Below are positions 22,625 through 40,821 of a stretch of DNA of 64,000 nucleotides, piece after piece (the first letter of the stretch is position 1; every line of letters begins with the position of its first letter). The notes beneath the pieces were generated by a model. The model worked only from the letters and a program-made list of their open reading frames with translations, searched no databases and had not been told where the DNA came from. The position numbers and the translations under genes were made by a program. Source of the stretch: a virus; the IMG/VR virus record IMGVR_UViG_3300005804_000111, positions 2,689-66,688 of that record; one strand, given 5' to 3'.

Positions 22625-22748
22625 ATCAGCTTCGGCTCCTTATATTTCAGATATGCCTGGCACTTGTTGCGCGAGCTGCAGCACGCGCAGACGCTGAGCT
22701 TTACGAGCGCCATAACTTCCGGGCAGGAGATGCGGAGGATTGGGGTGG

Positions 22749-23645
22749 TCATGATTTCCTCCACGGCAGCTCGTTATACTCCCGGCCATCGAGCAAGCGG
22801 CCTGCGCGTTTGTGGCCGATGCGCTCAAGTCGATACGTTTCCTTCCATCCTACGAGGGGTCCAGAAGGTATGATTCTCCCGGTAAACGCCCGATAACATG
22901 CCTTCCCAACGGATTTGCGGTCGGTTGATGAAGAGCAAACCCATCGGCTAAAGTCGGGAGTATCGGGAGGAACCTCGTCTACACCTGTAACTCCCCACTC
23001 TCCATTGCTTTTGAAATAGAACATTACACCGGCAGCCGCGCACTGATCGCGGACAGATCGCGCATTGTCGGGATGCATCGGCCTTGCGTTCTTGCCCGTT
23101 TCGCCGCCGAGAATGACGAAACTTATATGTGGTTCCATGAAATTGACGATAGAAGATAAGCAAGGCTCGATCAGCAGCCCGACCTTGCCGGGAATGTTCA
23201 GCGCATGAGGAATCCGCTTGTCTGCCATTTTCTGATTCTCGACCGTGACGAGGTGGTAGACGTTTGGGAGAGGCAACGCAAATTTAACCGCACGTTCTGG
23301 ACGTTTCGTAATAACCAAAAACGTGTGCTGGCGGCACTCTTCAAAAACCGCACAGACCTGACCAAGCTGAAACGGTGTTACTGCTTCATGGTACAAATCG
23401 CTCCACACTGCAAACACAGTCGGCTTCTTCGTCCGCATGGGAAGGTCGAGACGATCAGAGCGAAAAATAACCGTTCCGTTAAATACTCCTGCTTCGTCTG
23501 TCAAAATACCGCTACTATGCCCAGGCTCCACTTCGCGTGCAAATCTATTCGCCAATGCCGCCAGCCAGCAGTTATCGCACCCGGCACTGACCGGGGTGCA
23601 GCCTTCAACCAAACTCCACGCCTTATCCCAAAATTTTCCGCTCAT
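22749..23645 (-). CDS. DUF5131 (Gp37/Gp68) family protein, copy A
   Basis: GCTPVSAGCDNC, SDLYHE, TKRPER, GGETG..ARPMHP, GRLLDG. Confidence 0.88.
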   Translation of the reverse strand: MSGKFWDKAWSLVEGCTPVSAGCDNCWLAALANRFAREVEPGHSSGILTDEAGVFNGTVIFRSDRLDLPMRTKKPTVFAVWSDLYHEAVTPFQLGQVCAVFEECRQHTFLVITKRPERAVKFALPLPNVYHLVTVENQKMADKRIPHALNIPGKVGLLIEPCLSSIVNFMEPHISFVILGGETGKNARPMHPDNARSVRDQCAAAGVMFYFKSNGEWGVTGVDEVPPDTPDFSRWVCSSSTDRKSVGKACYRAFTGRIIPSGPLVGWKETYRLERIGHKRAGRLLDGREYNELPWRKS

Positions 23646-23869
23646 GGCTTTTCGCTCCTGAACAGATGAACTTTCATGATGGCGTAGCTCGTTCCCTTTG
23701 CAGCGTCAACAACGAGGACTATCCGATCGATATTGTATGCCTGTTTTCCGTCTATCCGGATTCCGGTATGACAGGGTAATCCGTCAGGGCTGGTGATTTC
23801 GAGACTCCCGACTTTTATGTTGTAGCTGTCGGCTTCGATCTTGACTGTCTGTTTTTCAGGTTCTATCAT
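23642..23869 (-). CDS. Hypothetical protein
   Basis: RBS GAGGA; ATGA overlap with the DUF5131 gene. Confidence 0.6.
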   Translation of the reverse strand: MIEPEKQTVKIEADSYNIKVGSLEITSPDGLPCHTGIRIDGKQAYNIDRIVLVVDAAKGTSYAIMKVHLFRSEKP

Positions 23870-23912
23870 TCTATTCCTCTTTGTTTTTCAGGTTGTTATG
23901 ACGAAACGAACC

Positions 23913-23993
23913 CCTCGGAAATTTTTCTGAATCTAGCGCGTTTTTGCGCTCGGGGCTGACCCGCAAGGCGTACCCCCGCCGGAAGGACCCGCG
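23913..23993 (-). other. Lambda-like cos region (cosQ, cosN, start of cosB)
   Basis: Minus strand reads GGGTCCTTCCGGCG...GCGGGTCAGCCCCG...AAAAATTTCCG, paralleling lambda GGGTCCT..CCGGCG...cosN...GAAAATTTTCCGG; gpA-type terminase downstream. Confidence 0.65.
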
Positions 23994-24015
23994 AATATAA
24001 AAGGCAACAGATCCT

Positions 24016-24585
24016 CTAAGCATAGTCACCGCTCTGTGCAATGCTGCCCTTGCTCATTGCGAACTCGATACCGCGACGGAATTCCTCGTTTAACTTCGCC
24101 TCTATCTTTACTTCAAGAGGCTTCTGCAGCCGCTCCTTGATCGCGCCACCGAGCGATGGGCCCATGATAAACTTCGTCGGCACACGCTCCTTGCCCTGGC
24201 GTTTGACCGGCAGCTTCCGTCCGTTGACTGTCATAACAAACGCACCACCACCCACGACTTTATAGCCGCCAGACTTCAACGTCTGCACCTGCGCAGGAGC
24301 TCTGCGCTTGCCTCCGCCCTTCACCTTGAACCAACTCAAAGCGATCGGCGTGCGCGGTACAGTAATAGTGGCAGTCAGCTTATACATGCTTGCCTTATCG
24401 ATTCTGATATCCTCCCGCACCTTCCGCGCAGTCACGGAGTACTCATCGCGCATCATCTTCACCATCTGCGCCCTACCATGAGTGGCAGCTTTATTGCACG
24501 CCATGGCTGCAACCTTGGCCACAGCCCGAGGGTCGAAGCGCTTGATAGCATCGTCGAGTCCTTTGAGTGTTATCTTTATCTCCAT
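24016..24585 (-). CDS. Minor tail/neck protein Z-like, displaced upstream of cos
   Basis: Basic protein; KRQGKERVP.KFIMGPS motif typical of gpZ-like proteins. Confidence 0.6.
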   Translation of the reverse strand: MEIKITLKGLDDAIKRFDPRAVAKVAAMACNKAATHGRAQMVKMMRDEYSVTARKVREDIRIDKASMYKLTATITVPRTPIALSWFKVKGGGKRRAPAQVQTLKSGGYKVVGGGAFVMTVNGRKLPVKRQGKERVPTKFIMGPSLGGAIKERLQKPLEVKIEAKLNEEFRRGIEFAMSKGSIAQSGDYA

Positions 24586-24586
24586 A

Positions 24587-25057
24587 TCAACGCACCTCCG
24601 CAGGTTTATTCATGTCTGCCCCTCGTGACTGATAGAACTCTGCAGTCTGATGCATGTTCATACCGAGCGCTTCACCGGCGCAGATGAACTCCTTGCGCGT
24701 GATCGTGCCCGACAGCAGCGCGTTAATGTTCCGGATCGCCTTGCGGCCAAAGTCGTCCTTGCCTTCCTCAGAGAAAAACCTTCTGGTATCCTCCGCCTCC
24801 TGCCTCTTTTTCCTCGCCTCTTCTTCTTTGAACATATTGAACCTGATGCTTTCAGCCAGTGCCATGCACTTCTGAGTTGAGGGGAACTGATCGCCGGCGA
24901 CCGTGTACTCCTTCAGGTGCTTCCACATTGCCTCGATGACTGGCAGCTCGTACTTCTCCATTTCACCGTGCCACATGTGGTACATGCCAGCAGTTGGTGG
25001 TATCCTGGGAACATAAAAAGACAACATCTCATTCCAGATAGTTTTCAGTCTTCCCAT
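24587..25057 (-). CDS. Replication accessory protein (helicase loader/inhibitor-like)
   Basis: Directly follows the initiator; FPS motif. Confidence 0.45.
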   Translation of the reverse strand: MGRLKTIWNEMLSFYVPRIPPTAGMYHMWHGEMEKYELPVIEAMWKHLKEYTVAGDQFPSTQKCMALAESIRFNMFKEEEARKKRQEAEDTRRFFSEEGKDDFGRKAIRNINALLSGTITRKEFICAGEALGMNMHQTAEFYQSRGADMNKPAEVR

Positions 25058-26025
25058 GGCATTTTCTCCCCGCCCTTGTTCGGCGTGCGGCCATAGCCCT
25101 GCATGGCCTTCTTCACATAGTTGATATTTGCTACTCCCCGAGTGTTTGCCTCAGTGAGCCCATATTCAAAACGCTCCGTCCCGCTCTCTTGCTTCAGATC
25201 CAGAAGAGCCAGTAGCGTGCTCTGTATGCGTGAGTTCTTCACCACGCCTGTGCTGTTCTTCTCTGCCATATTAGTTATGAACAGGCGTACCTTGTCGGCA
25301 GTGCCGTTGAACTGCGAATACATCGCCTCTATCTGTTCCGTTGTTATAAGGGGCTTTTGCTGACGTGCAGAACTGCCCGACCCCGTGCGCGACGCTTCGC
25401 GTTCGCGTGAAGGTTTTTCATCTGCTGTTGCTGCTGCATCTGCTGTTGCTGCTGCTGTGGTCGATAGGGGTATCGAAAAAGCCTGAAAAACTTCCCTCAG
25501 CTGCTGTAAAAGACGTGGATCAGCGTCTTTGTTTTGTACCGTCCGGAGAAAGAATTCTCGGTAATAATGCAGGAACTCCTCAATCACCACAGATGGCTTG
25601 AACTGCCTGATGTGATTCAGCACGCCCTTGAGTTGCTTGCTGTTCAGTGGACGATCGCCGACTTGATACCTCAGCATAGACTTCACCCAGAGCAGGCAAT
25701 ACTCTGAGTCATAACGAATGAAAAAATGTTTTTTCTCACTCATTCCAACTCTGGATAGCGTATCAATACCCATTGCATACCCGTCCGATACCCTATTGAT
25801 ACCCCTATCAATGGGGATACCCTGCAACTCTTTCATGGCATCTTCATACGCTTCAGGCTCCCAGCTCAACTCATTCATAGGGACATAAGGCTGCATCCAG
25901 AACAGTCCCGTAAAATGGCTGTCAGGGCTCGTAATATAGAACAGCATCAGCAGCTTGCTCTCATTATCAAGCTCTCGCACATGCGGATCGCGCCAGAAAT
26001 TAGCCTCAATGGTCTTATAGGCCAT
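25045..26025 (-). CDS. Replication initiator protein
   Basis: FW.DP....L....KLL..FYITSP N-terminus; internal repeat linker; C-terminal NYVKK.M. Confidence 0.75.
   Translation of the reverse strand: MAYKTIEANFWRDPHVRELDNESKLLMLFYITSPDSHFTGLFWMQPYVPMNELSWEPEAYEDAMKELQGIPIDRGINRVSDGYAMGIDTLSRVGMSEKKHFFIRYDSEYCLLWVKSMLRYQVGDRPLNSKQLKGVLNHIRQFKPSVVIEEFLHYYREFFLRTVQNKDADPRLLQQLREVFQAFSIPLSTTAAATADAAATADEKPSREREASRTGSGSSARQQKPLITTEQIEAMYSQFNGTADKVRLFITNMAEKNSTGVVKNSRIQSTLLALLDLKQESGTERFEYGLTEANTRGVANINYVKKAMQGYGRTPNKGGEKMPWED
25754..25822. repeat. Iteron-like 11-bp array (GATACCCTAT-type) inside the initiator gene; related palindrome TCGATAGGGGTATCGA at 25461-25476
   Basis: GATAGCGTATC AATACCCATTG CATACCCGTCC GATACCCTATT GATACCCCTATC in tandem. 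Confidence 0.6.
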
Positions 26026-26432
26026 CAGAACGCCTTTCCGTGTTTCATCGGGCGGAGCCGGTTCTTTTCCATCTTCGCGCGGAGCGCTTCGAGAAACTGT
26101 TCGGTGAAGCCGTTGCCTCCGACGTATGAGCACAGGCGTATTTGAATGTCGGCGAGTTCTTCGAGGAATGCGGCATAGTCCGTAATCTTGCTGATATCTG
26201 CATGGGGTACTGTTTTGCACTGCCTGTAGAATTCATAGTCATCGCACGCGCCGCCGATCTCCCAGAGCAGATGATCAGTTTCAGCATCGCCGGTGTTGCT
26301 CACACACTCGGCAGCCTCGCCGATCTCGGTCACCATCAGCGCCAGCTGCGTGCCGTGCTGCGTCAAGTCAAAGCCCTTGGCCTTGGTAGTCTCCGCGCAC
26401 TGCTCGATAATGGTTCTGAGGTCTGTGGTCAT
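26025..26432 (-). CDS. MazG-like NTP pyrophosphohydrolase
   Basis: EIGEAAE...EELAD..IR; KMEKN..RP..HGK. Confidence 0.85.
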   Translation of the reverse strand: MTTDLRTIIEQCAETTKAKGFDLTQHGTQLALMVTEIGEAAECVSNTGDAETDHLLWEIGGACDDYEFYRQCKTVPHADISKITDYAAFLEELADIQIRLCSYVGGNGFTEQFLEALRAKMEKNRLRPMKHGKAF

Positions 26433-26968
26433 GCCTGTTCACTCCTTGCCGCGCCCAGCAGTCCGTATCCGGCAATGTCACGGTACGGACTTTCGCCCAG
26501 GGCGTTCTTGTCCGTGGCAATACGGAAGAGCTTATCGACGATGCGCACCACTGCCAGCGCATCGTGCATCTGATCGGGGCTAATCCCATGCGGGTAAAGA
26601 ATACTCATAACCTGTCCGCTGCGACCGAAGCTGTCCCCATAAGCCGCCTGCTTCCGGGCGACAAGCTCGCCTATTGATTTTCCGAGCGACTCGTAACGAT
26701 CGACACGATCGACACGCTCCCAAACTGACATTTCGGCGCCATCCGTCTGTACCGGCAGATCTGACACCCCATCTGGCTCGGCCTGCTGTTTGCCGGTGCG
26801 GATATCGTGCTGTGTACTTTTGCCTGTATCAGCTGGCATTTTGGCTCTTGCATCCTTCTTCTCCTTTACGGGCGTTGCAGCAGAAAAATCGTATTGGCAC
26901 GCATAACAACTGCGTGCTGCGTTGCCTCTTTGTTCAGTTCCGCACTTTGGACACGTTTTGTATGGCAT
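26429..26968 (-). CDS. Zn-ribbon plus DUF1599-like (nucleotide-modification-associated) domain
   Basis: CPKC/CYAC; KQAAYGDSF...DKLFRI...ESPYRDIAGYGLL. Confidence 0.6.
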   Translation of the reverse strand: MPYKTCPKCGTEQRGNAARSCYACQYDFSAATPVKEKKDARAKMPADTGKSTQHDIRTGKQQAEPDGVSDLPVQTDGAEMSVWERVDRVDRYESLGKSIGELVARKQAAYGDSFGRSGQVMSILYPHGISPDQMHDALAVVRIVDKLFRIATDKNALGESPYRDIAGYGLLGAARSEQA

Positions 26969-27248
26969 CTTGTCTCTTTCCTCCGCTGCTTCTGCGCGGG
27001 CCATTACCGCGCACATGGCGCAGATCCCGCTTTTGCTATTCGTTAATCCTGAGCACCCTGCGCACAGCCCGTACAGTCCAGGTAATACTGCACCTTCGCC
27101 ACCGCCTGCCGCTTTATGCAGGTCTCGTGCGAGAGCGTGCCGCAAAGGTTCGTGCAGAAAAAGGTGTCAGTCAGTTTCAATCGTTCGTCCTTTCGGCCAT
27201 CGTCAGTTGCCGCTTCACGGCAAGACGGGGATTGCTCCCCGTTTCGGC

Positions 27249-28034
27249 CTAATGCACCTGAATCACCATCCAGTTATCAGCAATGCCTTTTCTGAACTCT
27301 TCGATCTCGCGAATGAGCGCATCACGGCGAGTGCGAATATGTGTCGGGTTTATGAGTTTGAATGTCGCTTTCTCGTTCTCAGACTTCGGGATCTCGATTT
27401 CCATATCCAGCAGGAATTCCGTGGTCAGTTTTGAACCTTCGAAGTATGGTCCTCTGAACGTGATACGCTTCGGCAGTGTCGCCGTCTGGTTGCCTCCACG
27501 ACGCTCCTGATAGATGAAGGTATGGTTCAACGGATCGACATTGCTCTCAAAGTCCTTGATCGTTTGAACCTGAAGAAGCTCAATATAAGGAAGAAGAGTG
27601 CGCCCCTCGGCAATTACATCAGGGAAAGTTTCAATGGCTTTGACCAGGTTCTTTTGTGAAAACACGGCTCCGGGTCCATCTCCGCAGAATGCCTTCAGTT
27701 CGAGCGAAGGAACGAATGAGTACTGAACAAACTCAACGCGATTGTTGGCATCGAAATAGGCTTTGATGCTGCTATCATCAAACAGGATAATGCCACTGGT
27801 TGCGTCCATGTAACGGTTAATAAATGAGACCATGCTCTGCGTGTCTGCCAACTTATGCTCTCTGTTCTTGTGGATATAGATGGGTGTCGGAGTCGGCTTT
27901 GTAACTTCCTGATACGTAGTACCGTTACGGACAAAGAAGCGTTTGCCATAGACAGGATCCTCGATCTCAAAGTGATCTCCCATCTGATCAACAATTCCGC
28001 TCACCATCATCTTCATTTCAGTGTTCTCTGCCAT
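27249..28034 (-). CDS. DUF2303-like phage protein
   Basis: Typically paired with the upstream small gene; LPK.ITF..P.FEG. Confidence 0.5.
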   Translation of the reverse strand: MAENTEMKMMVSGIVDQMGDHFEIEDPVYGKRFFVRNGTTYQEVTKPTPTPIYIHKNREHKLADTQSMVSFINRYMDATSGIILFDDSSIKAYFDANNRVEFVQYSFVPSLELKAFCGDGPGAVFSQKNLVKAIETFPDVIAEGRTLLPYIELLQVQTIKDFESNVDPLNHTFIYQERRGGNQTATLPKRITFRGPYFEGSKLTTEFLLDMEIEIPKSENEKATFKLINPTHIRTRRDALIREIEEFRKGIADNWMVIQVH

Positions 28035-28035
28035 A

Positions 28036-28380
28036 CTATTTCTCTCCTCCCTGTGCTTTTTTCATCTGAATGACGTTCTCCGGCAGCTCCAGCATGTCGG
28101 GCTGAGTTGCGTCGTTGCTAAAGGTGTCGATCTGCAGCACACCTTCCTTCATGCTCGCAAAGGTTCTGATCTCGCGATTCGGCGTATTGCAGGTGCAGCT
28201 CATATCCACTTCCACATAGCCGCGTGTGTTCGGTTTGAACTTCATCTTCATGGTGATCGTCCGCTCTCCGGAAAGATCACTGTCCTTTTCCATTGAGGTT
28301 TCTACTGCAGCAAGCGCTTCGGAAAACATCGCCTGCATTTTCGTTTCACTCAGTGCTGCCAGCGTCAAATCTTTCAGCAT
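28036..28380 (-). CDS. Conserved phage early protein
   Basis: R.IT.K.KFKP motif; RBS GGAGG. Confidence 0.55.
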   Translation of the reverse strand: MLKDLTLAALSETKMQAMFSEALAAVETSMEKDSDLSGERTITMKMKFKPNTRGYVEVDMSCTCNTPNREIRTFASMKEGVLQIDTFSNDATQPDMLELPENVIQMKKAQGGEK

Positions 28381-28539
28381 GTAGCCTCCCGTGCTACGTT
28401 TATGATCGGAGCTATTATCCGGATATCTGCTCCGTGCTTCTTTTCGGTGGAATGATCTGGAGCAGGAATCACTGCTCTTTCACCCGCGCTTACAGCGCAT
28501 ACCTGGCACGATCCCGGACTCCTCGGGGTATCCCATTAA

Positions 28540-28941
28540 TCAAAACGGTTCCAGGTCCGTTATTTCATCGGGCGGGGTCTGGTCTGCACCGCCCGCCGAT
28601 CCGCTGCTGCTGCCTCCGGGCTTGCTGCCGAGGAAGCGCACATTGCTTGCCACAACTTCTTTTTTGTTGAACTTCTGCCCGTCCTTTTCCCAGCGGCGCT
28701 CGCGGAGGCGTCCCTCTACTAGCACAGGCCTGCCCTTCGTGAGATACTGCCCGCAGTTGTCCGCCTGCTTTCCGAAGACCACGCAATCAATAAAGAGCGT
28801 TTCTTCCTTCGTGTTTCCGTCCGCGCCTTTCGTTCGGCTATTTACTGCGAGGCCGAGCGTTGCCACTGGAGTACCGCCCGGCGTATAGCGCACTTCAGGG
28901 TCTTTCGTGAGATTGCCTATAAGGATGACGCGGTTAAACAT
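28540..28941 (-). CDS. ssb: Single-stranded DNA-binding protein
   Basis: MFNRVILIGNLTKDPEVRYT; acidic tail DEITDLEPF. Confidence 0.96.
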   Translation of the reverse strand: MFNRVILIGNLTKDPEVRYTPGGTPVATLGLAVNSRTKGADGNTKEETLFIDCVVFGKQADNCGQYLTKGRPVLVEGRLRERRWEKDGQKFNKKEVVASNVRFLGSKPGGSSSGSAGGADQTPPDEITDLEPF

Positions 28942-29749
28942 GCTGCTCCTTCTTAACATACGCCACAATCATTTTCTCCCCATCAAAATACACCAGATAC
29001 CCGGCCAGCCACAGGTCAACGACCGCCTCATACGGATTTTTCCGGAGCGACATTTTATCAGCGACAACGGCCCAAGCGGCGTCCAAAGCGGCGGCCCAAG
29101 CGGCGTCCCAAGCGGCGTCCAAAGCGGCGGCCCAAGCGGCGGCCAAAGCGGCGGCCCAAGCGGCGGCCCAAGCGGCGTCCAAAGCGGCGGCCCAAGCGGC
29201 GTCCCAAGCGGCGTCCCTAGCGGCGTCCCAAGCGGCGTCCCAAGCGGCGGCCCTAGCGGCGGCCCTAGCGGCGTCCCTAGCGGCGTCCCAACTGCCGAAC
29301 ACTTTCGTCTCTGCGAAAATTGCCGCCTTGGTAAACGGCTTGTGTCTCCTGATAACTTCATTCATGAGCCGTGCGGGGCAGGGCTTTGTTGCGGTAAAGT
29401 AAAGGCCGGGCTGTTTTAATCTCTCAATTTTTGCCAGCACCTTTTTATAGTTCGGGCCATATATTCTGTGCTTGTTCAGCTCCTTTACTACTACCAGTTC
29501 AGACACGCGCATCTTCGAATCATCGCGCCCGATAATGTTCTTCTTATCGATCTTCACCTCAAACAGCCGACCGGGTTTGTTATGCCCGGACGCATGCCAT
29601 GGTGTGGGCGATACATGGTACCCACGCCCGCAGGGTCCATTATGAGACCTGTCCGGATCAGGATGCACCATCGTCTTTCCAACCTCATATAAAACCGTTC
29701 CGGTGTAATAATCACAGCCCTGATCATTTACTATCTTATACGCCTTCAT
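28934..29749 (-). CDS. Phage protein with an N-terminal C..G.H domain and (W/R/L)(D/A)AA repeats
   Basis: CGRGYH motif followed by 18 tetrapeptide units. Confidence 0.85.
   Translation of the reverse strand: MKAYKIVNDQGCDYYTGTVLYEVGKTMVHPDPDRSHNGPCGRGYHVSPTPWHASGHNKPGRLFEVKIDKKNIIGRDDSKMRVSELVVVKELNKHRIYGPNYKKVLAKIERLKQPGLYFTATKPCPARLMNEVIRRHKPFTKAAIFAETKVFGSWDAARDAARAAARAAAWDAAWDAARDAAWDAAWAAALDAAWAAAWAAALAAAWAAALDAAWDAAWAAALDAAWAVVADKMSLRKNPYEAVVDLWLAGYLVYFDGEKMIVAYVKKEQHV
29063..29290 (-). repeat. Coding 12-bp tandem repeat (18-19 units)
   Basis: ccaagcggcgtc-type units. Confidence 0.9.
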
Positions 29750-29934
29750 AGTGTTGCCCTCTCCACTTCCAGCATCGGGTCAACTTTTTCGCGGAGAATG
29801 TGCGTTGCGCTGTCGGCAAAGCTTGCGACGCACTCGGTCAAGAATGTGTCCAAGTCGGCATAGTCGAGGTTCTGCCGAAGCCGGTCGAGCTTCTTCAGCG
29901 TCTTATAGTCAATGTTTATGGTCAGTATCGGCAT
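29746..29934 (-). CDS. Small ribbon-helix-helix-like protein
   Basis: LTINID..TLKKLDRL pattern. Confidence 0.5.
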   Translation of the reverse strand: MPILTINIDYKTLKKLDRLRQNLDYADLDTFLTECVASFADSATHILREKVDPMLEVERATL

Positions 29935-30094
29935 CAGAAGTTCTCCGAGTAAAATGCCTCTAGGTAATCCGCAAGCTCGGCTTTGTTGAAAACACCGCCG
30001 TCGCCGGTCTCGTCGTTGAAAATGATGATCTTCTGTTCATCGAAATCCTTGACCGTGAATTTCCCGATCCGGATCGTTGGAAGTGAAGGAGCGA

Positions 30095-30367
30095 TCACTT
30101 CCATACTTTCCTCATGCCTTCATCGCCGGCTCCCGCTATCTGCACGTTCATGTTTCCATCTTGGCGCGGAATCATTTTAATGTTGCTGTTCACCAAGTAG
30201 AACGGCCGACCCTCTGCTATCGCTATGCGCATGTCGAGCCGGAGCTCCTGCAGCATGTCATCCTTTGCAGAGTCGTATGCGCTGTCTATCACCATCATCA
30301 TGCCCGATGCAAAGCCGAGCACGGCTGAAGACACGGCAATCAATATGTATGTGCAGCATTTTTTCAT
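30095..30367 (-). CDS. Membrane-anchored hypothetical protein
   Basis: N-terminal TM segment; RBS GGAGG. Confidence 0.55.
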   Translation of the reverse strand: MKKCCTYILIAVSSAVLGFASGMMMVIDSAYDSAKDDMLQELRLDMRIAIAEGRPFYLVNSNIKMIPRQDGNMNVQIAGAGDEGMRKVWK

Positions 30368-30630
30368 AGGGCCTCCTTGTACTGGCATTTCGAGCATTTG
30401 CGCCAGCCGGTCGCCTGCCGCGCACGGCAGACTGGTGTATGGATACGGTGGCCGCGAACACACTCGCGGAAGCCGTTGTCGGAAAAGGTGACGGAGCTGG
30501 CCGGCAAGGCCTGCACCTTCTCCGTCGAGCTATCGGTTTTGAAACATAGCGTGGACACTGACGGTTTTTCGGGCCGTCTCCCGTATTTCCGCGCCAAGGG
30601 CGCGGTTGTGCTGAGTGCTATCGTGCTCAC
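30364..30630 (-). CDS. Hypothetical protein with a Cys-rich C-terminus
   Basis: ATGA overlaps within the early operon. Confidence 0.5.
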   Translation of the reverse strand: MSTIALSTTAPLARKYGRRPEKPSVSTLCFKTDSSTEKVQALPASSVTFSDNGFRECVRGHRIHTPVCRARQATGWRKCSKCQYKEAL

Positions 30631-30995
30631 TTTGATCGCGCTTTCTGCCGCGCAATCCTGTCGGCCGCAAGGCGCATATCAATAATCTGGTGGTACCGTT
30701 TCTTTGTCTCGATCTTCTCCATAGCACGGTCTGTTTTGCTCACACCGGCCCGTTCCATCGAAGCTGCTGCCAGCCCCTGCAGATGCTCATTCACATGCGT
30801 CAATATGAACCGGCGCGGTTTACCGAAGCCCCCCATGCGTCGGGAGTGTTGGTTCAGGAAGCTCTTCGTCAGGTGGTACTGCTGCATAAGGTATGCATCG
30901 TCCACCACAATGATGGTGGCAGGGGCCGCAGGGTCGACCCCTGCCGATGCAGAGGGGCAGGAGGTGCTGCTATGGTGGGGGGTATATCGTGGCAT
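30627..30995 (-). CDS. Hypothetical DNA-binding-like protein
   Basis: Operon overlaps. Confidence 0.5.
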   Translation of the reverse strand: MPRYTPHHSSTSCPSASAGVDPAAPATIIVVDDAYLMQQYHLTKSFLNQHSRRMGGFGKPRRFILTHVNEHLQGLAAASMERAGVSKTDRAMEKIETKKRYHQIIDMRLAADRIARQKARSK

Positions 30996-31228
30996 CAGAA
31001 CAGGCGCTCCAGCCGGTACTGATAAACACCTTTTTTAATGCATTTGCAGTCTATGTCGATGCCGTTGTCCCTGAGTTCCTCAACGATGGAATTGACCGCA
31101 CAGACTCCGGCTTCCTGCGCGATTTGCAGCGTTGTCTTTGGACCGCGCAACAGGCAGGTGTAAACCCGCTGCAGGCGGTCGCTCTTTTCAATCCGTGCAC
31201 TGTGCATTTTCCCGGTGCGTGTGCTCAT
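30995..31228 (-). CDS. Small winged-HTH protein
   Basis: TTLQIAQEAGVCAVNSIVEELRDNGIDI. Confidence 0.65.
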   Translation of the reverse strand: MSTRTGKMHSARIEKSDRLQRVYTCLLRGPKTTLQIAQEAGVCAVNSIVEELRDNGIDIDCKCIKKGVYQYRLERLF

Positions 31229-31419
31229 GGCAGCAGCTCCCCTATGCCTTCGATCTCCCCAAGTCCGCACTGCACGCGAAGCGAGTTGACCGCGATCATC
31301 TCTGCGGGCGTCATAGCATCAATGTGAATACCACCGTCGAGGATCCGGCACAGCACATCGTGCTGCGTCTCGTCCAGATAGACGAGCCTCTGCCAGCTTC
31401 GTGCGATAGGCTGCATCAT
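31225..31419 (-). CDS. Hypothetical protein
   Basis: ATGA overlaps at both ends. Confidence 0.5.
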   Translation of the reverse strand: MMQPIARSWQRLVYLDETQHDVLCRILDGGIHIDAMTPAEMIAVNSLRVQCGLGEIEGIGELLP

Positions 31420-31883
31420 TCCCGAACCTCGGCAGATTTCTCGGCATCGTGGATAAGCGTAAGAATCGCCCGTACCGCATGCATACCCTCCTTGCGGATG
31501 CGCTTTGCTTCCTCGCGGTCCACATTACCATCGCCGATTGCTTTGGTTACCTCCTGTGCTATGTCTCCGAATTCCTTCACAGCAAGGATCATATCAGTCG
31601 TGATATTTGTGCAGTCACATCTCGGGATAGGCAGCGCGAGGATGCCGAATTGCTCGGCAAGGTAATGTAGTGGGGCAAGCGCTTCTGGGTTCTTCAGATC
31701 CTGAGCGGTGCTGATGATCGTCTCAATCCTGTCGACTGGGTTATATGCACCGCTGTCGGTGAAATCGGTGTGCGGCTCCTGCCACTTACTCACAAGCGAA
31801 GTGCTCACACCCAAACGCTTTGCGTGTTCGATCGTTTTTCCGGCTATTGCCGCCTGAATGGATTCGTATGATTTCATGCCCAT
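31416..31883 (-). CDS. CII-like phage regulatory protein
   Basis: AKRLGVSTSLVSKW..P HTH; KEFGD...A..DG.VD..E...I.KE. Confidence 0.75.
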   Translation of the reverse strand: MGMKSYESIQAAIAGKTIEHAKRLGVSTSLVSKWQEPHTDFTDSGAYNPVDRIETIISTAQDLKNPEALAPLHYLAEQFGILALPIPRCDCTNITTDMILAVKEFGDIAQEVTKAIGDGNVDREEAKRIRKEGMHAVRAILTLIHDAEKSAEVRE

Positions 31884-32111
31884 ACCCTGCGGTTACGAAT
31901 GCTGCTGAAGGTTGTAATTGCGAGGGGAAAAAGGAAATGCGAAACTGAATCAAGATGATATATAATGTTGACAAAATATTTTTCATATCCGGCAGCCAAG
32001 GTGGCCCGTACCGTGACGGGAGAGGACCACCATGACTGCCTCTGCGAAACAGGCCTGAAGCGTTGGGGACGGTTCGGCCCGGTTGCATGTGAACGATGAA
32101 AGGATGAGCAT

Positions 32112-32294
32112 ATGGACTTAAAAGCACAAATCGAATGCCCCAACTGTAAAAAGGAAATCAGCATCATAATGAAGACAGGCGGCTCGATCAGTCCCAAAGC
32201 CTGCCGACACTGCAAGGCAGAAATTGTCTTGTCGGAAAAGAGCATGAAGTCTCTCAAGAACATTGACGCCTCTTTGAAGAAGCTTTCCGGATGA
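32112..32294 (+). CDS. Small Zn-ribbon protein, antisense to the lytic operon
   Basis: CPNC...CRHC; AAGGA RBS. Confidence 0.55.
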   Translation: MDLKAQIECPNCKKEISIIMKTGGSISPKACRHCKAEIVLSEKSMKSLKNIDASLKKLSG

Positions 32295-32460
32295 GCTTAG
32301 TGCGGTCTTTGACCTCCAAAACGGTGATTGCTTCTGATACTGCCTTCGCCGCAGCGTCAACCTGCGAGCGGAGATTTTTGAGAGTTCTCACCAGTTCCTT
32401 TAGTGAGGTAGCTCCCCGCTGCTCAATCGCTACCTTGATGGTGACCGTTTTTTCTGTCAT
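32254..32460 (-). CDS. First lytic-side gene (cro position), no obvious HTH
   Basis: ATG at 32460 with GGGGGA RBS, downstream of a strong promoter. Confidence 0.55.
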   Translation of the reverse strand: MTEKTVTIKVAIEQRGATSLKELVRTLKNLRSQVDAAAKAVSEAITVLEVKDRTKLIRKASSKRRQCS

Positions 32461-32491
32461 TTTTCCCGTCCCCCGTGGTGTTCTTGGTTCA

Positions 32492-32520
32492 ATATTATAC
32501 CCGTCACGGGTAATTGTCAA
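32492..32520 (-). promoter_or_regulatory. Lytic promoter with operator palindrome TACCCGT-C-ACGGGTA (32498-32512)
   Basis: TTGACA-17 bp-TAATAT; perfect 7-bp inverted repeat in the spacer; variant near 32009-32021. Confidence 0.7.
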
Positions 32521-32547
32521 GGGTATTTTTGCATTAAATTTTCTTAT

Positions 32548-33012
32548 ATGCGTATAAAAGAATTTGCAAACAGAATAAGAAATGAACGCTGGGCCAGAAA
32601 GCTCAACCAGACGAAATTCGCGTCTCTGGTCGGCGTTACTCAGTCTACGATTTCGGCCTGGGAGCGAGCTGAGTTTGTGCCTGACATACCGCAATTAATC
32701 GTGACCGCTAACAGACTCGGGCTCAATCCGGCATGGCTCGCACATGGCGAGGGTGATAAATTTGCATCTCACGCAGCCGAAGATCAGTCGCCCTACACTG
32801 CAGATCCGCTCGCCGCTGAACTTCTCGACGTTATTTCCGAGCTCGACCCCGATGACCGCGCACGCATATTGGCCGAAGCAAAAGACCGGCTACTATTAAA
32901 GAAGCTGAAGGAGCAGATAGACCGTGCTCAACCCGGCGGCGGCAGCGAGGAGCGACACGCTCCTACCCTTCCGCCGCAGCAAGCGAAGAAAGGTAGACGA
33001 GAGACAGCTTAG
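32548..33012 (+). CDS. Prophage A repressor (Xre HTH, no S24 domain)
   Basis: LNQTKFASLVGVTQSTISAWER, NPAWLAHGEG; divergent from the lytic operon. Confidence 0.88.
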   Translation: MRIKEFANRIRNERWARKLNQTKFASLVGVTQSTISAWERAEFVPDIPQLIVTANRLGLNPAWLAHGEGDKFASHAAEDQSPYTADPLAAELLDVISELDPDDRARILAEAKDRLLLKKLKEQIDRAQPGGGSEERHAPTLPPQQAKKGRRETA

Positions 33013-33171
33013 CCTTCGGCTCTGGCCATGCCCGGCAGCAGCTGAAACGGCAGACCTACTTGCGCGTCTGCTGAATGTCATCTATAATGGTGAGTGCATC
33101 CACTGCGGCGGCTGCCGCAGATCGCGTATAAAACACCACGTAACCGTCATTGTGCGTGACTACTACGGAGG

Positions 33172-33642
33172 ATGAGAATGATAAGACTTGTTGCACTGCT
33201 CTTAGCGATATTAATGATCTGCGGGTGCGCCACGTTTGGCCCTGCGCCGTCTGAGCCTGAGTATTCCAAGGCAATCGAAAAACTGCCCGCTGCAAAAACT
33301 GCGGTTTATATAATGGAGGCAGCTTGGTATCCGAATATCGTCCTCGGGGACATGTCCTCTTTCCATGCGCAGAGCAATGCCGGATCTCTATTTGTTACGC
33401 CTGAGCAGCTGGTATTTGCAGCATACGACAGCGCCACTGATCGATTCCTGCAGTCATTTTCAGCGTCCTATGCCGATATGGGATGGCTCACAACAAAACA
33501 GCACGGTTTGTCGCGGATTATCCGCGTACAGATCAATAACAGTGTCCACAGCTTCCTTTTTGCCAGGGGGCAGAAAAGCAACGGTGAGGATGCCGACAAG
33601 GACGAGGTTATGCAGTTTGTTCTGAACAAGGGGAAAAAATAG
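33172..33642 (+). CDS. Lipoprotein with a PH-like domain (lysogenic conversion/exclusion candidate)
   Basis: Lipobox MICGC; GSLFVTPEQLVF. Confidence 0.7.
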   Translation: MRMIRLVALLLAILMICGCATFGPAPSEPEYSKAIEKLPAAKTAVYIMEAAWYPNIVLGDMSSFHAQSNAGSLFVTPEQLVFAAYDSATDRFLQSFSASYADMGWLTTKQHGLSRIIRVQINNSVHSFLFARGQKSNGEDADKDEVMQFVLNKGKK

Positions 33643-33649
33643 AGAAGCC

Positions 33650-34291
33650 ATGGAGCAGGCCCTTGTCATAATCATTGTGCTCATCGGGGTCGGTTTCTGG
33701 ATCAAAACCATCAGAAAAAACGAAAAAGAGTCCCGCGCCCGACAACTCTCAGCTCCGCGTATGGAAGCTATCCATCATACAAAGGCTTATTTTGCAGATA
33801 TCAATACCACACACCGCATCCCCGAAGTGTCCACCGATATACTGCTGGACCCCGGAGAAAAGGCTTACCTCTATGACGATCACGTTTCCTTACTCGAAAT
33901 GCGGGCAGCGAGGAAAACAGAGACCGTTGGAGCTGGTGTCCGAGTGCTCAAAGGAGTTTATGTCGGCGGCGCGAGCGGAACGTCCAGGGCTTACGACGAA
34001 CTATGCGAGATCGGCAGCGGTACACTCACGCTTACCAACAAAAGAATAATTTTCAACGGTGCATCCAATCCGCGCAATATACCCCTGCAAAATATCATAG
34101 CGGTCAACGAGAGCAGTGAGATAATAGAAATCTCATTAAAAAACCGAATCAAAAGCATGTATTTCACCGGGGTGGACAATGCTATCCTTTGGAAATCGCT
34201 CGTACAGTTCATTCGAGCTCTGCCACCCGATGGATCAATCCCCCATGTGGATATAGAAATCCAGTACTGGAAGGATAATGTCAGTTTATAA
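33650..34291 (+). CDS. Membrane-anchored PH-like protein
   Basis: N-terminal TM segment; GTLTLTNKRIIFNG. Confidence 0.7.
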   Translation: MEQALVIIIVLIGVGFWIKTIRKNEKESRARQLSAPRMEAIHHTKAYFADINTTHRIPEVSTDILLDPGEKAYLYDDHVSLLEMRAARKTETVGAGVRVLKGVYVGGASGTSRAYDELCEIGSGTLTLTNKRIIFNGASNPRNIPLQNIIAVNESSEIIEISLKNRIKSMYFTGVDNAILWKSLVQFIRALPPDGSIPHVDIEIQYWKDNVSL

Positions 34292-35426
34292 GCGCGGAAA
34301 ACACTGGTATATAAACGTCATCGTTGGCGGGGTGCGCATCCATCGCAAGGGCGGCCGCACAAAGGCTGCTGCCGAGCAGATTGTTGAGGAGTTACGCACG
34401 GACGCCCGACGCAAGAAACTCTCGTTGCCTCGCATTATCGACGACGCCGAGACGCCGTTCATTTACCTGGCTGAAGAATATTTTCTCCGCGCTGCAGCGG
34501 TCAAGGCATTAAGTACGTACAAAGTAGAACGCAATTTTTACGATAATCATATCCGCCCGTTTTTTGAGGACACCATGGCGTCCGACATTAGCGACCCTCT
34601 GCTGCTCGATTTCCAGACCTATCTGTGCTCAAAACAGGTCGTACGCGGCTATCAGCCCAAAGATCCAGCTATAGTGCGCCCTACGGCCCCTATGGGGCCC
34701 AGAACGGTCAATATTTGCGTCGGTATCGTGCGAAAGATCATCAACCACGCCGTGCAAAAGACACTCATGCACGCAACCACATTCAAGTACCCGCACCTCA
34801 AAGAGCCGAAGCGGTTGCACTCCTTTTTCACCTTTGAGGAGTGGGATGCTTTACTCGATGCAGCGCGTGAAATACACCCGGAGATTGTCGACCGCATCGA
34901 GATTGCCCGCGACGCAGGACTGCGCCCCGCAGAGCATGCGTACCTGGCATGGGCAAGCGACATAGACCTGCACAACCGTATCATCCGCATTACCGGCAAG
35001 CCCGGCCTGTGGGAGCCGAAAACGTGGGAAGAGCGTGTCATACCTATGACCGCCAATGCCTACGCCATCTTGAAGCGCCGGCGGAAGGTGCGCCAGGGGC
35101 CGTGGGTGTTCAGCGATGGTCCTGCGCCAGTTATTGATATCGGGAAATCACTCTCCGCATGCGCGGAGCATGCCGGTATTGAAAAGAAGGTCGGGCCGAA
35201 CATGCTGCGCCACACGTTTGCAACTCACGGGCTCATGGGCGGCATCAAGAGCAAGTCGATCTCCGAGCTTATGGGACACAAAGATGAGCGCACCACGGCG
35301 CGTTATATACACGCAATTCAGGATGGACTCGCTCAGGAAATCGCATTGCTGGACCGGAAAAAACAACCCCGCCGAGGTAAAACGGTCGCCACAAAGTCGC
35401 CACACCAAAAAAAGAAGGCCTCCTGA
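34278..35426 (+). CDS. int: Tyrosine integrase of prophage A
   Basis: N-terminal arm-binding beta sheet; GLRPAE, PKT, NMLRH, MGH, ARY. Confidence 0.93.
   Translation: MSVYKRGKHWYINVIVGGVRIHRKGGRTKAAAEQIVEELRTDARRKKLSLPRIIDDAETPFIYLAEEYFLRAAAVKALSTYKVERNFYDNHIRPFFEDTMASDISDPLLLDFQTYLCSKQVVRGYQPKDPAIVRPTAPMGPRTVNICVGIVRKIINHAVQKTLMHATTFKYPHLKEPKRLHSFFTFEEWDALLDAAREIHPEIVDRIEIARDAGLRPAEHAYLAWASDIDLHNRIIRITGKPGLWEPKTWEERVIPMTANAYAILKRRRKVRQGPWVFSDGPAPVIDIGKSLSACAEHAGIEKKVGPNMLRHTFATHGLMGGIKSKSISELMGHKDERTTARYIHAIQDGLAQEIALLDRKKQPRRGKTVATKSPHQKKKAS
35385..35404 (+). repeat. Arm-type repeats GTCGCCACA x2 (11-bp pitch)
   Basis: gtcgccacaaagtcgccaca inside the 3' end of int. Confidence 0.7.
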
Positions 35427-35436
35427 TTGGAGGCCT
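35407..35436 (-). terminator. Intrinsic terminator downstream of the tRNA 3' end
   Basis: AGGCCTCC-N5-GGAGGCCT followed by a T-run on the minus strand. Confidence 0.75.
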
Positions 35437-35454
35437 AAGTCATTGTTTTTAAAA

Positions 35455-35500
35455 GAGCGGGCGACGAGATTCGAACTCGCGACCTTCAGCTTGGGAAGCT
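35455..35500 (-). pseudogene. 3' half of tRNA-Gly(CCC), att core
   Basis: AGC-TTCCCAA-GCTGA-AGGTC-GCGAG-TTCGAAT-CTCGT-CGCCCGC-TC; D arm and 5' acceptor strand absent. Confidence 0.92.
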
Positions 35501-35566
35501 ATTTTACATCCCCTAACTTCATTTATTTTCAACGACTTATCAGGTGCAAAAACGGTCAAAAAAGGG

Positions 35567-35779
35567 TTATTTCTGTGAAAAGTCCCGACATTTTCCCGAC
35601 ATCAGATATTTTGCCACGCTCTGCAATTTCCCCGGATCAAGGACGCCTCTCGCAATCGCCTTTCTGACAGCATGAGTCGTAACCTTTTTTGCAGAGGCAA
35701 TTTCCGGGATCGTATAATGATACTTTCGATGCCCTTTACCGCCACGCCATTGAGTGCCTTTGAATGCACTCTCGCTCAT
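35567..35779 (-). CDS. Excisionase-like small HTH protein
   Basis: YTIPEIASAKKVTTHAVRKAIARGVLDP; points at the att core. Confidence 0.6.
   Translation of the reverse strand: MSESAFKGTQWRGGKGHRKYHYTIPEIASAKKVTTHAVRKAIARGVLDPGKLQSVAKYLMSGKCRDFSQK
35583..35601 (+). repeat. Arm-type repeats TCCCGACA x2 (11-bp pitch)
   Basis: gtcccgacattttcccgaca to the right of the core. Confidence 0.65.
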
Positions 35780-36084
35780 TCACCCTCCAACATTTCGTTG
35801 AGCTTGTCAGCGCATGTTCCGTAATAGCAATCATTACTCACATCGCAGTTAATGTTTCTCAGCCCCAGTTCATACTCAGCTTTCCATATCAAAAATTGCT
35901 TCATCATCTCGTTGGTGATCTTCGGCACAGTGCGGGTGTTCCATCTTCGGAAAACATCGCAATAGACTTTGCTCACTCCGGTAATGTAACAGTCTTTTTT
36001 ATGTCGTACCATTAAATACAGTTCCCCTTTTGTTCTAGGAGATGCAATGGTTCCACAAAACGGGCATGGTTTCAGTTCACTCAC
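35776..36084 (-). CDS. Lar-like restriction alleviation protein
   Basis: ELKPCPFCG...RRWNTR. Confidence 0.65.
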   Translation of the reverse strand: MSELKPCPFCGTIASPRTKGELYLMVRHKKDCYITGVSKVYCDVFRRWNTRTVPKITNEMMKQFLIWKAEYELGLRNINCDVSNDCYYGTCADKLNEMLEGE

Positions 36085-36443
36085 TCTTGACCTCCTATCG
36101 CTCTTTTCAGTTCTATCAATGTGCAGTCCTCGCCATCTGCAAGATACAGATTGTCGTTAATTGTTTTTGCAATGGCAGAGCGTAACTTCTCGTTCTCATC
36201 TTCGATTAGAGCGCACCGCTGAATCAGTCCGCCAACATGCGCTTCTGATGCGAATAGTGCGGCTTTCTGGACGGCGATTTCACCATCCAATTGCGCCAAC
36301 ATCTTGATATAATCAAACTTGATACGCGCATTCTCAGCCCTGACGGTTGCAAGTTCTTGTTCTAAATAATACAGCTCTTCACATCTTATCGAACAAAAGC
36401 CGTGGATTCTGTCTTCTTCAGCACTGCACCTTTTACAGTTCAT
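36081..36443 (-). CDS. Hypothetical Zn-finger/coiled-coil protein
   Basis: CKRC..C...C followed by heptads; RBS GGAG. Confidence 0.6.
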   Translation of the reverse strand: MNCKRCSAEEDRIHGFCSIRCEELYYLEQELATVRAENARIKFDYIKMLAQLDGEIAVQKAALFASEAHVGGLIQRCALIEDENEKLRSAIAKTINDNLYLADGEDCTLIELKRAIGGQE

Positions 36444-36555
36444 CACTTCTCCTTTCTCTTCTCTGCCCTTCAAATAGGCCCAGACCCCCAACCTCCGCAC
36501 CTGTAAAATACTTCTCTCTCATTACTGTAGCCTTCCTGTCGTTTTTGCGTTCATA

Positions 36556-40764: not shown

Positions 40765-40821
40765 AATCAAAACCTTTATGGCTCTACGAGCCAGCGCGGA
40801 AAAAATTTCTAATCGGTGGTG

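What the first reader, a model, noticed from the sequence alone, without database searches (positions are those of the whole stretch)
23376..23645. Recent gene-segment exchange between the two neighbouring prophages
Seen: the DUF5131 genes share 90 identical N-terminal residues. By eye, 23403-23594 matches 37150-37341 at 191/192 nt, while the flanks carry many synonymous changes and the 3' halves are clearly diverged. I noticed no other shared sequence of this kind. Inference: recent conversion between co-resident phages. The direct repeat is also a substrate for a deletion of about 13.7 kb that would remove int, the att junction and A's immunity and replication genes, fusing A and B.
Basis: partly seen in the sequence, partly recalled or inferred. 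Interest (0 to 1): 0.55.

Follow-up and report, generated by a model that had tools for sequence, protein, structure and literature searches.

The report
Recent DNA patch shared by neighbouring prophages
Two otherwise well-diverged copies of a phage gene in neighbouring prophages share a 192-base stretch that is almost letter-for-letter identical, which is the ordinary footprint of a recent recombination between phages.

Summary
Window 23403-23594 equals 37150-37341 at 191 of 192 nt. The stretch lies inside two minus-strand DUF5131 (PF07505) genes, 22749-23645 and 36556-37392. Their first 90 residues are identical.

- **Not protein constraint.** The 78 flanking nt that also encode identical residues carry 16 differences. 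Fisher p is 9e-9, and dS is 0.02 in the tract against about 0.9 or more elsewhere.
- **Supported by an independent assembly.** In k=31 contigs of the one public run holding this DNA, contigs break exactly 30 nt inside each tract end. The tract contig is deeper than copy B's flanks. This argues against assembler homogenisation.
- **Only long shared DNA.** Nothing else of this kind joins the two prophages. Nothing similar was found elsewhere.
- **Kind of feature.** It is a typical recently exchanged mosaic with homology on both sides, as described for temperate phages (PMC3945230).
- **Direction.** A B-like donor into A is suggested but not proven.
- **Open points.** The prophages differ 2-3 fold in depth, so how often they share a cell is unknown. 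The 13.7-kb deletion is geometrically possible but untested.

Low interest.

The parts
23403..23594 (-). Tract, copy in prophage A. It covers codons 18-81 of the DUF5131 gene. The longest perfect runs are 120 nt (23403-22) and 71 nt (23524-94).
   Evidence: 191 of 192 nt identical to 37150-37341. dS is 0.022. Logan contigs end at 23432 and restart at 23565, which is 30 nt inside each tract end.
37150..37341 (-).
   Evidence: One 192-nt Logan contig covers exactly 37150-37341 with no differing letter. Its depth is 85.2, against 69.7 and 69.8 in the flanks.
22749..23645 (-). DUF5131 (PF07505, radical-SAM superfamily subgroup) gene of prophage A, 298 aa.
   Evidence: Pfam 185 bits against a cut-off of 28.9. 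PHROG 2045. Residues 91 to the end are nearest to P0002 (62%) and P0003 (54%), against 44% for B.
36556..37392 (-). DUF5131 gene of prophage 2, 278 aa, with its ATG at 37392.
   Evidence: Pfam 201 bits against a cut-off of 28.9. Overall 75.07% nt identity to copy A over 686 aligned columns.
23595..23645 (-). 5' flank of the tract (codons 1-17). The residues are identical. There are 8 nt differences in 23595-23619, then 26 identical nt at 23620-23645.
23376..23402 (-). 3' flank of the tract (codons 82-90). The residues are identical, with 8 nt differences in 27 nt.
23595..37149 (.). Interval between the two direct repeats. A crossover between the repeats would remove one repeat unit of 13,747 nt. 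The interval holds:
- A's early genes, including a DnaD-like loader (25045-26220), SSB (28540-28968) and an HTH repressor-like gene (32548-33012);
- integrase A;
- the att junction;
- three small ORFs and the 3' part of B's DUF5131 gene.
34278..35426 (+). Tyrosine integrase of prophage A.
   Evidence: PF00589 at 81 bits. PHROG 1. 46% aa identity to the integrase at the right end of the record.
35456..35513 (-). tRNA-like remnant with no D arm. The 46-nt core at 35456-35501 is the junction between the two prophages.
   Evidence: Rfam tRNA at 24.7 bits, below the gathering score of 29, E = 0.0058. Logan contigs branch at 35456 and 35501. The first 18 nt recur, with 2 mismatches, directly after the second integrase at the end of the record. 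There is no other copy in the record.

Best explanation
The 192-nt tract is a patch of recent homologous recombination. It arose by gene conversion or a double crossover between two diverged DUF5131 genes.

**The two prophages.** They lie in tandem, in the same orientation, at a tRNA-like attachment site.
- Prophage A runs from the left end of the record to about 35.5 kb.
- Prophage 2 runs from about 35.5 kb to the right end of the record.

**How the exchange worked.** The two genes were already about 60-80% alike in DNA. The exchange started and ended in the stretches that encode the most conserved protein motifs: EGCTPVSAGC on one side and VWSDLYHE on the other. It replaced the segment in between, leaving identical DNA flanked by old, diverged homology.

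**Likely recipient and catalyst.** The recipient was probably copy A. A's closest relatives over the rest of the protein lack a roughly 21-residue insert that the tract carries. The nearest relative of the tract itself has that insert. A plausible catalyst is the RecT-family annealing protein encoded with an SSB by prophage 2, or the host's RecA.

**Shown:** the tract, its statistical excess, its direct-repeat geometry, and its support in an independent assembly.

**Inferred:** the mechanism, the direction, the enzyme, and that the exchange took place between these two elements in one cell.
For: - **The match.** 191 of 192 nt are identical.
- **Excess over background.**
  - The tract has 1 difference in 192 nt.
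  - The flanks encoding identical residues have 16 in 78 nt.
  - Identical-residue codons in the rest of the gene have 43 in 291 nt.
  - Fisher p is 9e-9 and 1.4e-10 respectively, and the permutation test gives 0 of 200,000.
  - dS is 0.022 in the tract, against 0.89 to saturated elsewhere.
- **Only long shared DNA.** This gene is the only long DNA shared by the two prophages.
- **Independent k=31 contigs of run X1.**
  - Contigs from the A flanks end at 23432 and restart at 23565.
  - Contigs from the B flanks end at 37179 and restart at 37312.
  - Each break is exactly 30 nt inside a tract end, as expected when reads join all four flanks to the same tract words.
  - The tract contig has depth 85.2, against 69.7 and 69.8 for B's flanks.
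- **A difference survived assembly.** The assembly kept one difference inside the tract (23523), so it could tell the copies apart there.
- **No third source found.**
  - The best non-self proteins among 5.8 billion are 61% identical to A and 54% to B.
  - Short protein fragments reach at most 55% (5 proteins).
  - IMG/VR loci reach at most 49%.
  - GTDB genomes reach at most 42%.
  - An exact 27-mer of the tract had 0 hits in metagenome and viral contigs.
- **Direction.**
  - A's residues 91 to the end are nearest to P0002 (62%) and P0003 (54%), against 44% for B.
  - The tract's nearest non-self relative is P0005 at 72%.
  - P0002 and P0003 lack the insert and P0005 has it.
- **Recombination genes.** Prophage 2 encodes RecT (PF03837, 101.5 bits) and an SSB.
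- **Tandem layout.** A tRNA-like core follows each integrase.
- **Known pattern.** Recently exchanged fragments flanked by lower-identity homology, mostly small gene fragments, are described for temperate phages (PMC3945230, abstract and section 12 read).
Against: - **Unequal depth.** Depth is 23.9-34.1 for A and 65.9-69.8 for prophage 2. The two are not at 1:1. The A/B join runs through a 46-nt repeat that the k=31 contigs cannot bridge, so tandem co-residence rests on the original assembly alone.
- **The tract interior in the A context is not confirmed.**
  - No Logan contig lies on 23433-23564. I derive this from the bin depth of 19.5.
  - The mismatch at 23523 is therefore unconfirmed.
  - Further A-specific variants popped as bubbles cannot be excluded.
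- **The tract contig is slightly shallow.** My arithmetic for one mismatch predicts a depth of about 89-96, and 85.2 was observed.
- **Direction is weak.** In a tree of 34 of the 179 proteins held, A groups with P0002 and P0003 at only 88/73 support. The AU test does not reject an A+B clade (p = 0.358). GC3 gives no information.
- **No pre-exchange relative.** No near relative of either phage exists in any collection searched, so the state before the exchange cannot be seen.
Confidence: 0.8

Rival explanations
1. The tract reached one or both genes from a third, unsampled phage, or was exchanged during an earlier infection. On this reading the present side-by-side position is incidental and is not the setting of the exchange.
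For: [quoted passage not shown]
- The phages here have no sampled relatives, so donors could easily be missing from the collections.
- Unequal depth shows that A and prophage 2 do not always travel together.
Against: - No other carrier of the tract was found. The best non-self match to the tract is 72% aa. The exact 27-mer had 0 hits. Short fragments reach at most 55%.
- The two carriers are 13.7 kb apart on one contig, and near-identity (1 difference in 192) points to a very recent event.
Confidence: 0.12
2. The tract is an assembly artefact. Either the assembler replaced A's own diverged sequence by the more abundant B version through bubble merging, or A and prophage 2 come from different genomes and were joined at the 46-nt tRNA-like repeat.
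For: - B is 2-3 times deeper than A.
- Logan's contigs keep only the B version of the tract, and nothing lies on 23433-23564.
- The att core is shorter than a read but longer than k=31 (all).
Against: - A-flank contigs run exactly 30 nt into the tract at both ends.
- The tract contig is 15 deeper than B's flanks.
- The assembly kept a difference at 23523.
- The flanks differ by about 20%, far more than bubble merging normally bridges (recalled behaviour of assemblers, not tested).
- A chimeric join would not by itself create an identical tract.
Confidence: 0.05
3. The identity is kept by selection on the DNA or RNA itself. The tract would then hold an embedded cis element or small RNA shared by both phages, and would not reflect recent exchange.
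For: None was found. The only point in favour is that a 26-nt identical run also sits at the very 5' end of both genes.
Against: - The tract folds no better than shuffled sequence on either strand, with z +1.97 and +1.46.
- There is no Rfam match at E of 1 or below in 23200-23900.
- The tract ends coincide with protein motifs.
- A 192-nt element conserved at every wobble position would be unusual.
Confidence: 0.02

Closest known systems
Recently exchanged 'mosaics' with homologous-recombination traces between temperate phages and prophages (De Paepe et al. 2014, PMC3945230; abstract and section 12 read)
   Same: - A short high-identity fragment (99.5%) between two temperate phage genomes, flanked on both sides by lower but above-background identity.
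- A fragment of a gene rather than a whole module.
- A Rad52-like (RecT) recombinase is encoded by one partner.
   Different: - At 192 nt it is shorter than their median of 404 nt.
- Both flanks show traces, which held for only 34 of their 635 temperate-temperate mosaics.
- The partners here are unrelated to any sampled phage.
- No experiment links RecT to this event.
Gene conversion between dispersed paralogues in one bacterial chromosome, for example the duplicated tuf genes of Salmonella (recalled, no call)
   Same: A non-reciprocal patch homogenises part of two diverged direct-repeat genes on one replicon.
   Different: Here the partners are on two mobile elements, the conversion covers only 64 codons, and the rest of the genes remains saturated at silent sites.
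Deletions and rearrangements by recombination between homologous stretches of co-resident prophages in polylysogens (recalled, general knowledge; the review PMC13492144 was seen only in a search listing)
   Same: Direct repeats in two neighbouring prophages could delete the DNA between them.
   Different: No deletion product was seen or could be tested here. The repeat is short, with perfect runs of 120 and 71 nt.

Membership tests
Phage mosaic with HR traces (definition in PMC3945230, section 12) | A BLAST match of more than 90% identity between two temperate or defective phage genomes. | tested here: met
   95.0% over 260 nt in the BLAST. The core is 191 of 192.
Phage mosaic with HR traces (definition in PMC3945230, section 12) | Flanking regions less identical than the mosaic but at least 10% above the background identity. 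| tested here: met
   Both sides meet this. 62 of 78 nt are identical in the immediate flanks. The gene shows 75.07% over 686 columns, while the surrounding DNA gives no BLAST match at all. The paper's own realignment procedure was not run.
DUF5131 / Gp37-Gp68 family (PF07505) | A score above Pfam's gathering cut-off across the domain. | tested here: met
   185 and 201 bits against 28.9, covering profile positions 6-243 of 243. The family is listed as a radical-SAM superfamily subgroup in PMC9477430 (one passage read). The Cys motif C16, C23, C26 is invariant in 10 of 10 aligned sequences.
Tandem prophages at one tRNA attachment site | An integrase next to a tRNA 3'-part copy at the junction, with a second copy at the outer end. 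| tested here: inconclusive
   A tRNA-like remnant lies at 35456-35513, below the Rfam cut-off (24.7 against 29 bits). Only the first 18 nt of a second copy, with 2 mismatches, are visible at the end of the record. The left end of A lies outside the record.
Diversity-generating retroelement template/variable repeat pair | A reverse transcriptase nearby, a variable repeat at the 3' end of the target gene, and differences at template adenines. | tested here: not met
   No reverse-transcriptase family appeared among the ORFs scanned: 63 in PHROGs, and 38 and 31 in Pfam. Both repeats lie in the 5' third of homologous genes. There is only one difference.

The most novel reading that the evidence does not exclude
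The sample catches prophage-prophage exchange in progress. Prophage A sits in only a third to a half of the cells that carry prophage 2, or prophage 2 is replicating. Its RecT is repeatedly copying the N-terminal module of the radical-SAM enzyme, which holds two of the three cluster cysteines and a lineage-specific insert, into the incoming phage's gene. On this reading the two enzymes are kept identical in the module that would contact a shared partner or substrate. That would be concerted evolution under selection and not a neutral one-off patch.
Probability: 0.08. Interest if true: 0.4.

Novelty: new member of a known kind. Interest (0 to 1): 0.2.

Why it matters
This is a clean natural example of how temperate phages become mosaics. 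It is a single short patch with both homology 'traces' intact, inside one protein domain, between two elements on the same contig, one of which encodes a RecT-type recombinase. It adds no new principle. Its practical use is modest:
- It flags a 192-nt direct repeat that could cause mis-assembly or a 13.7-kb deletion.
- It shows that the two DUF5131 proteins are chimeric relative to their relatives, which matters for any phylogeny of that uncharacterised radical-SAM subgroup.

Tried and rejected
- **Close relatives that would show the state before the exchange.** None were found.
  - GenBank phages gave 20 records, each covering only 8-13% of the gene at 72-79% identity.
  - Megablast of 23.7 kb of A gave no match. 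Megablast of 24.6 kb of prophage 2 gave two matches of about 115 nt.
  - IMG/VR gave 2 loci at 39% or below for A, and the best 80 of at least 600 at 49% or below for B.
  - GTDB genomes gave the best 80 of 226, at 42% or below.
- **The tract elsewhere.** An exact 27-mer of the tract had 0 hits in metagenome and viral contigs. The window's own record may be left out of these collections.
- **Direction from base composition.** GC3 is 0.53 in the tract, against 0.565 and 0.566 in the two gene remainders, so it gives no information.
- **Direction from a tree.** The test was inconclusive.
- **An RNA element in the tract.** There is no fold signal and no Rfam match.
- **A diversity-generating retroelement.** Rejected; see the membership test.
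- **A solved structure for the protein.** None at E of 1 or below. NCBIfam gave only a far sub-threshold radical-SAM 'mobile pair protein A' match, 30 bits against a cut-off of 355.
- **The deletion junction and a tract crossover.** Contigs at k=31 cannot phase across the tract. The flank depths (A-left 23.9, A-right 32.6-34.1, B-left 69.7, B-right 69.8) do not fit a simple crossover model, so nothing can be said either way.
- **Earlier notes of this scan.** None exist for this genome.

Full report
**Observation.**
- Both regions were read and compared base by base. Window 23403-23594 equals 37150-37341 at 191 of 192 positions, at a constant offset of 13,747.
- The stretch lies in two minus-strand genes. 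A is 22749-23645 (298 aa). B is 36556-37392 (278 aa, with its ATG at 37392; the longer TTG-started ORF listed is not needed).
- Both genes are full-length members of PF07505/DUF5131, at 185 and 201 bits against a cut-off of 28.9.
- Residues 1-90 are identical.
- The one mismatch, at 23523, is a silent Pro41 change. It splits the tract into perfect runs of 120 and 71 nt.

**Is it more than chance or protein constraint?**
- A protein-guided codon alignment gives these difference counts:
  - 1 in 192 nt in the tract (dS 0.022);
  - 16 in the 78 flanking nt that still encode identical residues (codons 1-17 and 82-90);
  - 43 in 291 nt at the 97 identical-residue codons further downstream (dS 0.89).
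- From codon 91 on, dN is 0.43 and dS is 1.2.
- Fisher's exact test gives p = 9e-9 for the tract against the flanks. It gives 1.4e-10 for the tract against all other identical-residue codons.
- In 200,000 permutations of the 187 identical-residue codons, none produced 64 consecutive codons with one or fewer changed codons.
- Silent sites are therefore saturated everywhere except in the tract, and purifying selection on the protein cannot explain it.
- The 5' flank is patchy. It has 26 identical nt at the very start of the gene (23620-23645), then 8 differences in 25 nt. By my estimate the 26-nt run is not significant on its own.

**Is anything else shared?**
- In a self-BLAST of the window, 2 of 11 non-self rows link the two prophage areas. 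Both lie in this gene: 75.07% over 686 columns, and 89% over 46 nt at the 3' ends. The other 9 rows are tandem repeats inside two ORFs.
- In the whole 91,251-nt record, which is an IMG/VR provirus with the window at 2689-66688, the only addition is a 34-nt perfect run and a 40-nt run at 90% in the two integrase genes. Four further matches of 17-21 nt have E of 0.007 or higher.
- The integrases are 46% identical in protein. By my estimate the 11-codon identical run over PNMLRHTFATH is only marginally unexpected.

**Context.** PHROG, Pfam and NCBIfam scans give two prophages in the same orientation.
- **Prophage A** runs from the left end of the record to about 35.5 kb. Its genes, in order of rising coordinate, are:
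  - tail genes;
  - a fused protease-capsid gene (13799-15679);
  - portal;
  - large terminase (18624-20771) and small terminase;
  - a Dam-like methylase (22130-22624);
  - DUF5131;
  - a DnaD-like loader (25045-26220);
  - SSB (28540-28968);
  - an HTH repressor-like gene (32548-33012);
  - integrase (34278-35426).
- **The junction.** Directly after the integrase lies a tRNA-like remnant without a D arm (35456-35513, minus strand; 24.7 bits, below Rfam's 29).
- **Prophage 2** starts there.
  - *Integrase-distal arm.* It holds three small ORFs, DUF5131, a methylase (PHROG 757), a radical-SAM protein, a DnaN-like clamp (43777-45192) and a small XerA-like recombinase (46117-46935).
  - *Structural genes.* They run from 47.5 kb and include a tape measure gene at 55249-58368.
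  - *Beyond the window.* It has terminase-region genes, an IstB-like loader, RecT (PF03837), SSB, an S24 CI-like repressor and a second integrase that runs to the end of the record.
- **The second att copy.** The record ends with the first 18 nt of the same tRNA-like core, with 2 mismatches. No other copy of the core exists in the record. For this reason I read the 'B arm' and the structural genes as one prophage of at least 53 kb.

**Reads.**
- Only one public run holds this DNA. It is X1, a freshwater sediment metagenome that may be the source sample, and it is kept only as Logan k=31 contigs.
- Laid on 22000-38500, its contigs break as follows:

| Contig | Span | Depth |
|---|---|---|
| A-left | ends at 23432 | 23.9 |
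| A-right | starts at 23565 | 32.6 |
| B-left | ends at 37179 | 69.7 |
| Tract | exactly 37150-37341, no differing letter | 85.2 |
| B-right | starts at 37312 | 69.8 |

- Breaks exactly 30 nt inside each tract end are what a k=31 graph gives when all four flanks lead into the same words. The extra depth of the tract contig says that A's copy contributes to it. This is independent support that the shared tract is in the reads.
- This evidence has limits.
  - No contig lies on the middle of the A copy. I derive this from the bin depth of 19.5.
  - A's letter at 23523 is therefore unconfirmed, and other low-depth A variants could have been dropped.
  - For a single mismatch I would expect a depth of about 89-96, not 85.2.
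- The fact that the original assembly kept a difference within the tract argues against wholesale homogenisation.

**An unexpected result.**
- A (23.9-34.1) is 2-3 times shallower than prophage 2. For prophage 2 the depths are 69.7 and 69.8, and 65.9 for the contig that I identified as its integrase from the letters before 87488.
- There are three possible readings:
  - A is present in only part of the cells that carry prophage 2.
  - Prophage 2 is replicating.
  - Least likely, the two were joined wrongly at the 46-nt core, which k=31 contigs cannot bridge.
- The host-flank depth that would decide between these is outside the record.
- A-left is also shallower than A-right while B-left equals B-right. 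A crossover in the tract cannot explain this, and it remains unexplained (note 2).

**Where did the tract come from?**
- No other carrier exists in anything searched.
  - Among 5.8 billion proteins, A and B are each other's near-best hits at 60%.
  - The best others are P0002 (61% to A) and P0005 (54% to B).
  - Short protein fragments reach at most 55% (5 proteins).
  - Other collections reach at most 49%.
  - An exact 27-mer had 0 hits.
- Segment comparisons show two patterns.
  - A's residues 91 to the end are closest to P0002 (62%) and P0003 (54%), and only 44% to B.
  - The tract's closest non-self relative is P0005, at 72%.
- In the alignment, P0002 and P0003 lack a roughly 21-residue insert that the tract carries, and P0005 has it. 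This points to a B-like donor and A as recipient.
- The support is thin.
  - In a tree of residues 91 to the end, built from 34 proteins that I picked as the best of both hit lists out of the 179 held, A groups with P0002 and P0003 at 88/73.
  - The AU test does not reject an A+B clade (p = 0.358).
  - GC3 does not discriminate.

**Mechanism.**
- The pattern is a near-identical fragment bounded on both sides by older homology of about 60-80%, with boundaries in the DNA that encodes the most conserved motifs. This is the signature of homology-driven exchange.
- De Paepe et al. (PMC3945230; abstract and section 12 read) report that:
  - such mosaics are common among temperate and defective phages, at 0.8-2.4 per genome pair;
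  - they have a median length of 404-494 nt;
  - they are mostly gene fragments;
  - about a third have flanking homology traces;
  - Rad52-like recombinases such as RecT drive them on diverged substrates, independently of RecA.
- Prophage 2 encodes RecT and an SSB. That RecT made this patch is inference.
- Whether the event was a conversion or a double crossover cannot be told from the product.

**The deletion.**
- The two copies are direct repeats. Perfect runs of 120 and 71 nt exceed the minimal lengths usually quoted for RecA- or RecT-type recombination. Those lengths are recalled, not from a call.
- Because residues 1-90 are identical, the fused gene would encode A's protein unchanged.
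- No evidence for or against such a product could be obtained.

**Rivals rejected.**
- An embedded RNA or DNA element. There is no fold signal (z +1.97 and +1.46) and no Rfam match.
- A retroelement repeat pair. No reverse transcriptase appeared among the scanned ORFs, and the repeats are in the wrong place in the gene.

**Function of the gene.** This remains unknown.
- PMC9477430 lists DUF5131 as a radical-SAM superfamily subgroup (one passage read).
- No solved structure matches.

**Verdict.** This is a real and statistically unambiguous feature, and it is ordinary. It is a new instance, in otherwise unsampled phages, of well-described temperate-phage mosaicism.

Noticed in passing
window 22000-38500 (run X1 contigs): The two prophages differ 2-3 fold in contig depth: A 23.9-34.1 against prophage 2 65.9-69.8. 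A's late-gene contig (23.9) is also shallower than its early-gene contigs (32.6 and 34.1). The causes could be a polymorphic prophage A, a replicating prophage 2 or strain mixtures. This is not resolved.
   Followed up: partly
window 35456-35513 (minus strand); record right end (window-equivalent 88545-88562): A tRNA-like remnant lacking the D arm sits right after integrase A. The loop letters read by eye suggest a Gly-CCC type. It serves as the junction between the two prophages. In the metagenome the same 46-nt core continues into several different tRNA 5' halves, seen as loose ends.
   Followed up: partly
window 35196-35229 against record position window-equivalent 88300-88333: There is a 34-nt perfect identity (11 codons, PNMLRHTFATH) between two integrase genes that are only 46% identical in protein. 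It could be a second micro-patch or chance at a conserved motif.
   Followed up: partly
window 35567-47377: The integrase-distal arm of prophage 2 carries an unusual set of accessory genes:
- DUF5131;
- a methylase (PHROG 757);
- a radical-SAM protein (39913-40770);
- a DnaN-like sliding clamp with a C-terminal extension (43777-45192, 471 aa);
- a small XerA-like tyrosine recombinase (46117-46935);
- a weak, sub-threshold Lar-like match (35776-36084).
   Followed up: no
window 39061-39437 and 29068-29291: Two ORFs contain in-frame tandem repeats. Self-matches occur at offsets that are multiples of 24 nt in ORF 38533-39603. They occur at multiples of 60 nt in ORF 28934-29749, which carries an N-terminal DUF7666.
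   Followed up: no
window 18132-18608 (minus strand): An ORF with HTH plus T5orf172/MUG113 domains, which looks like a homing endonuclease, lies between the large terminase and the head-tail joining gene of prophage A.
   Followed up: no
window 13799-15679 (minus strand): A 626-aa protein matches both head maturation protease and major head protein families. It appears to be a fused protease-capsid gene (PHROG 617, 4523).
   Followed up: no
window 23620-23645 = 37367-37392: The first 26 nt of both DUF5131 genes are identical, followed by 8 differences in 25 nt before the tract starts. This could be a discontinuous conversion tract or chance at the conserved MSGKFWDKA start.
   Followed up: partly
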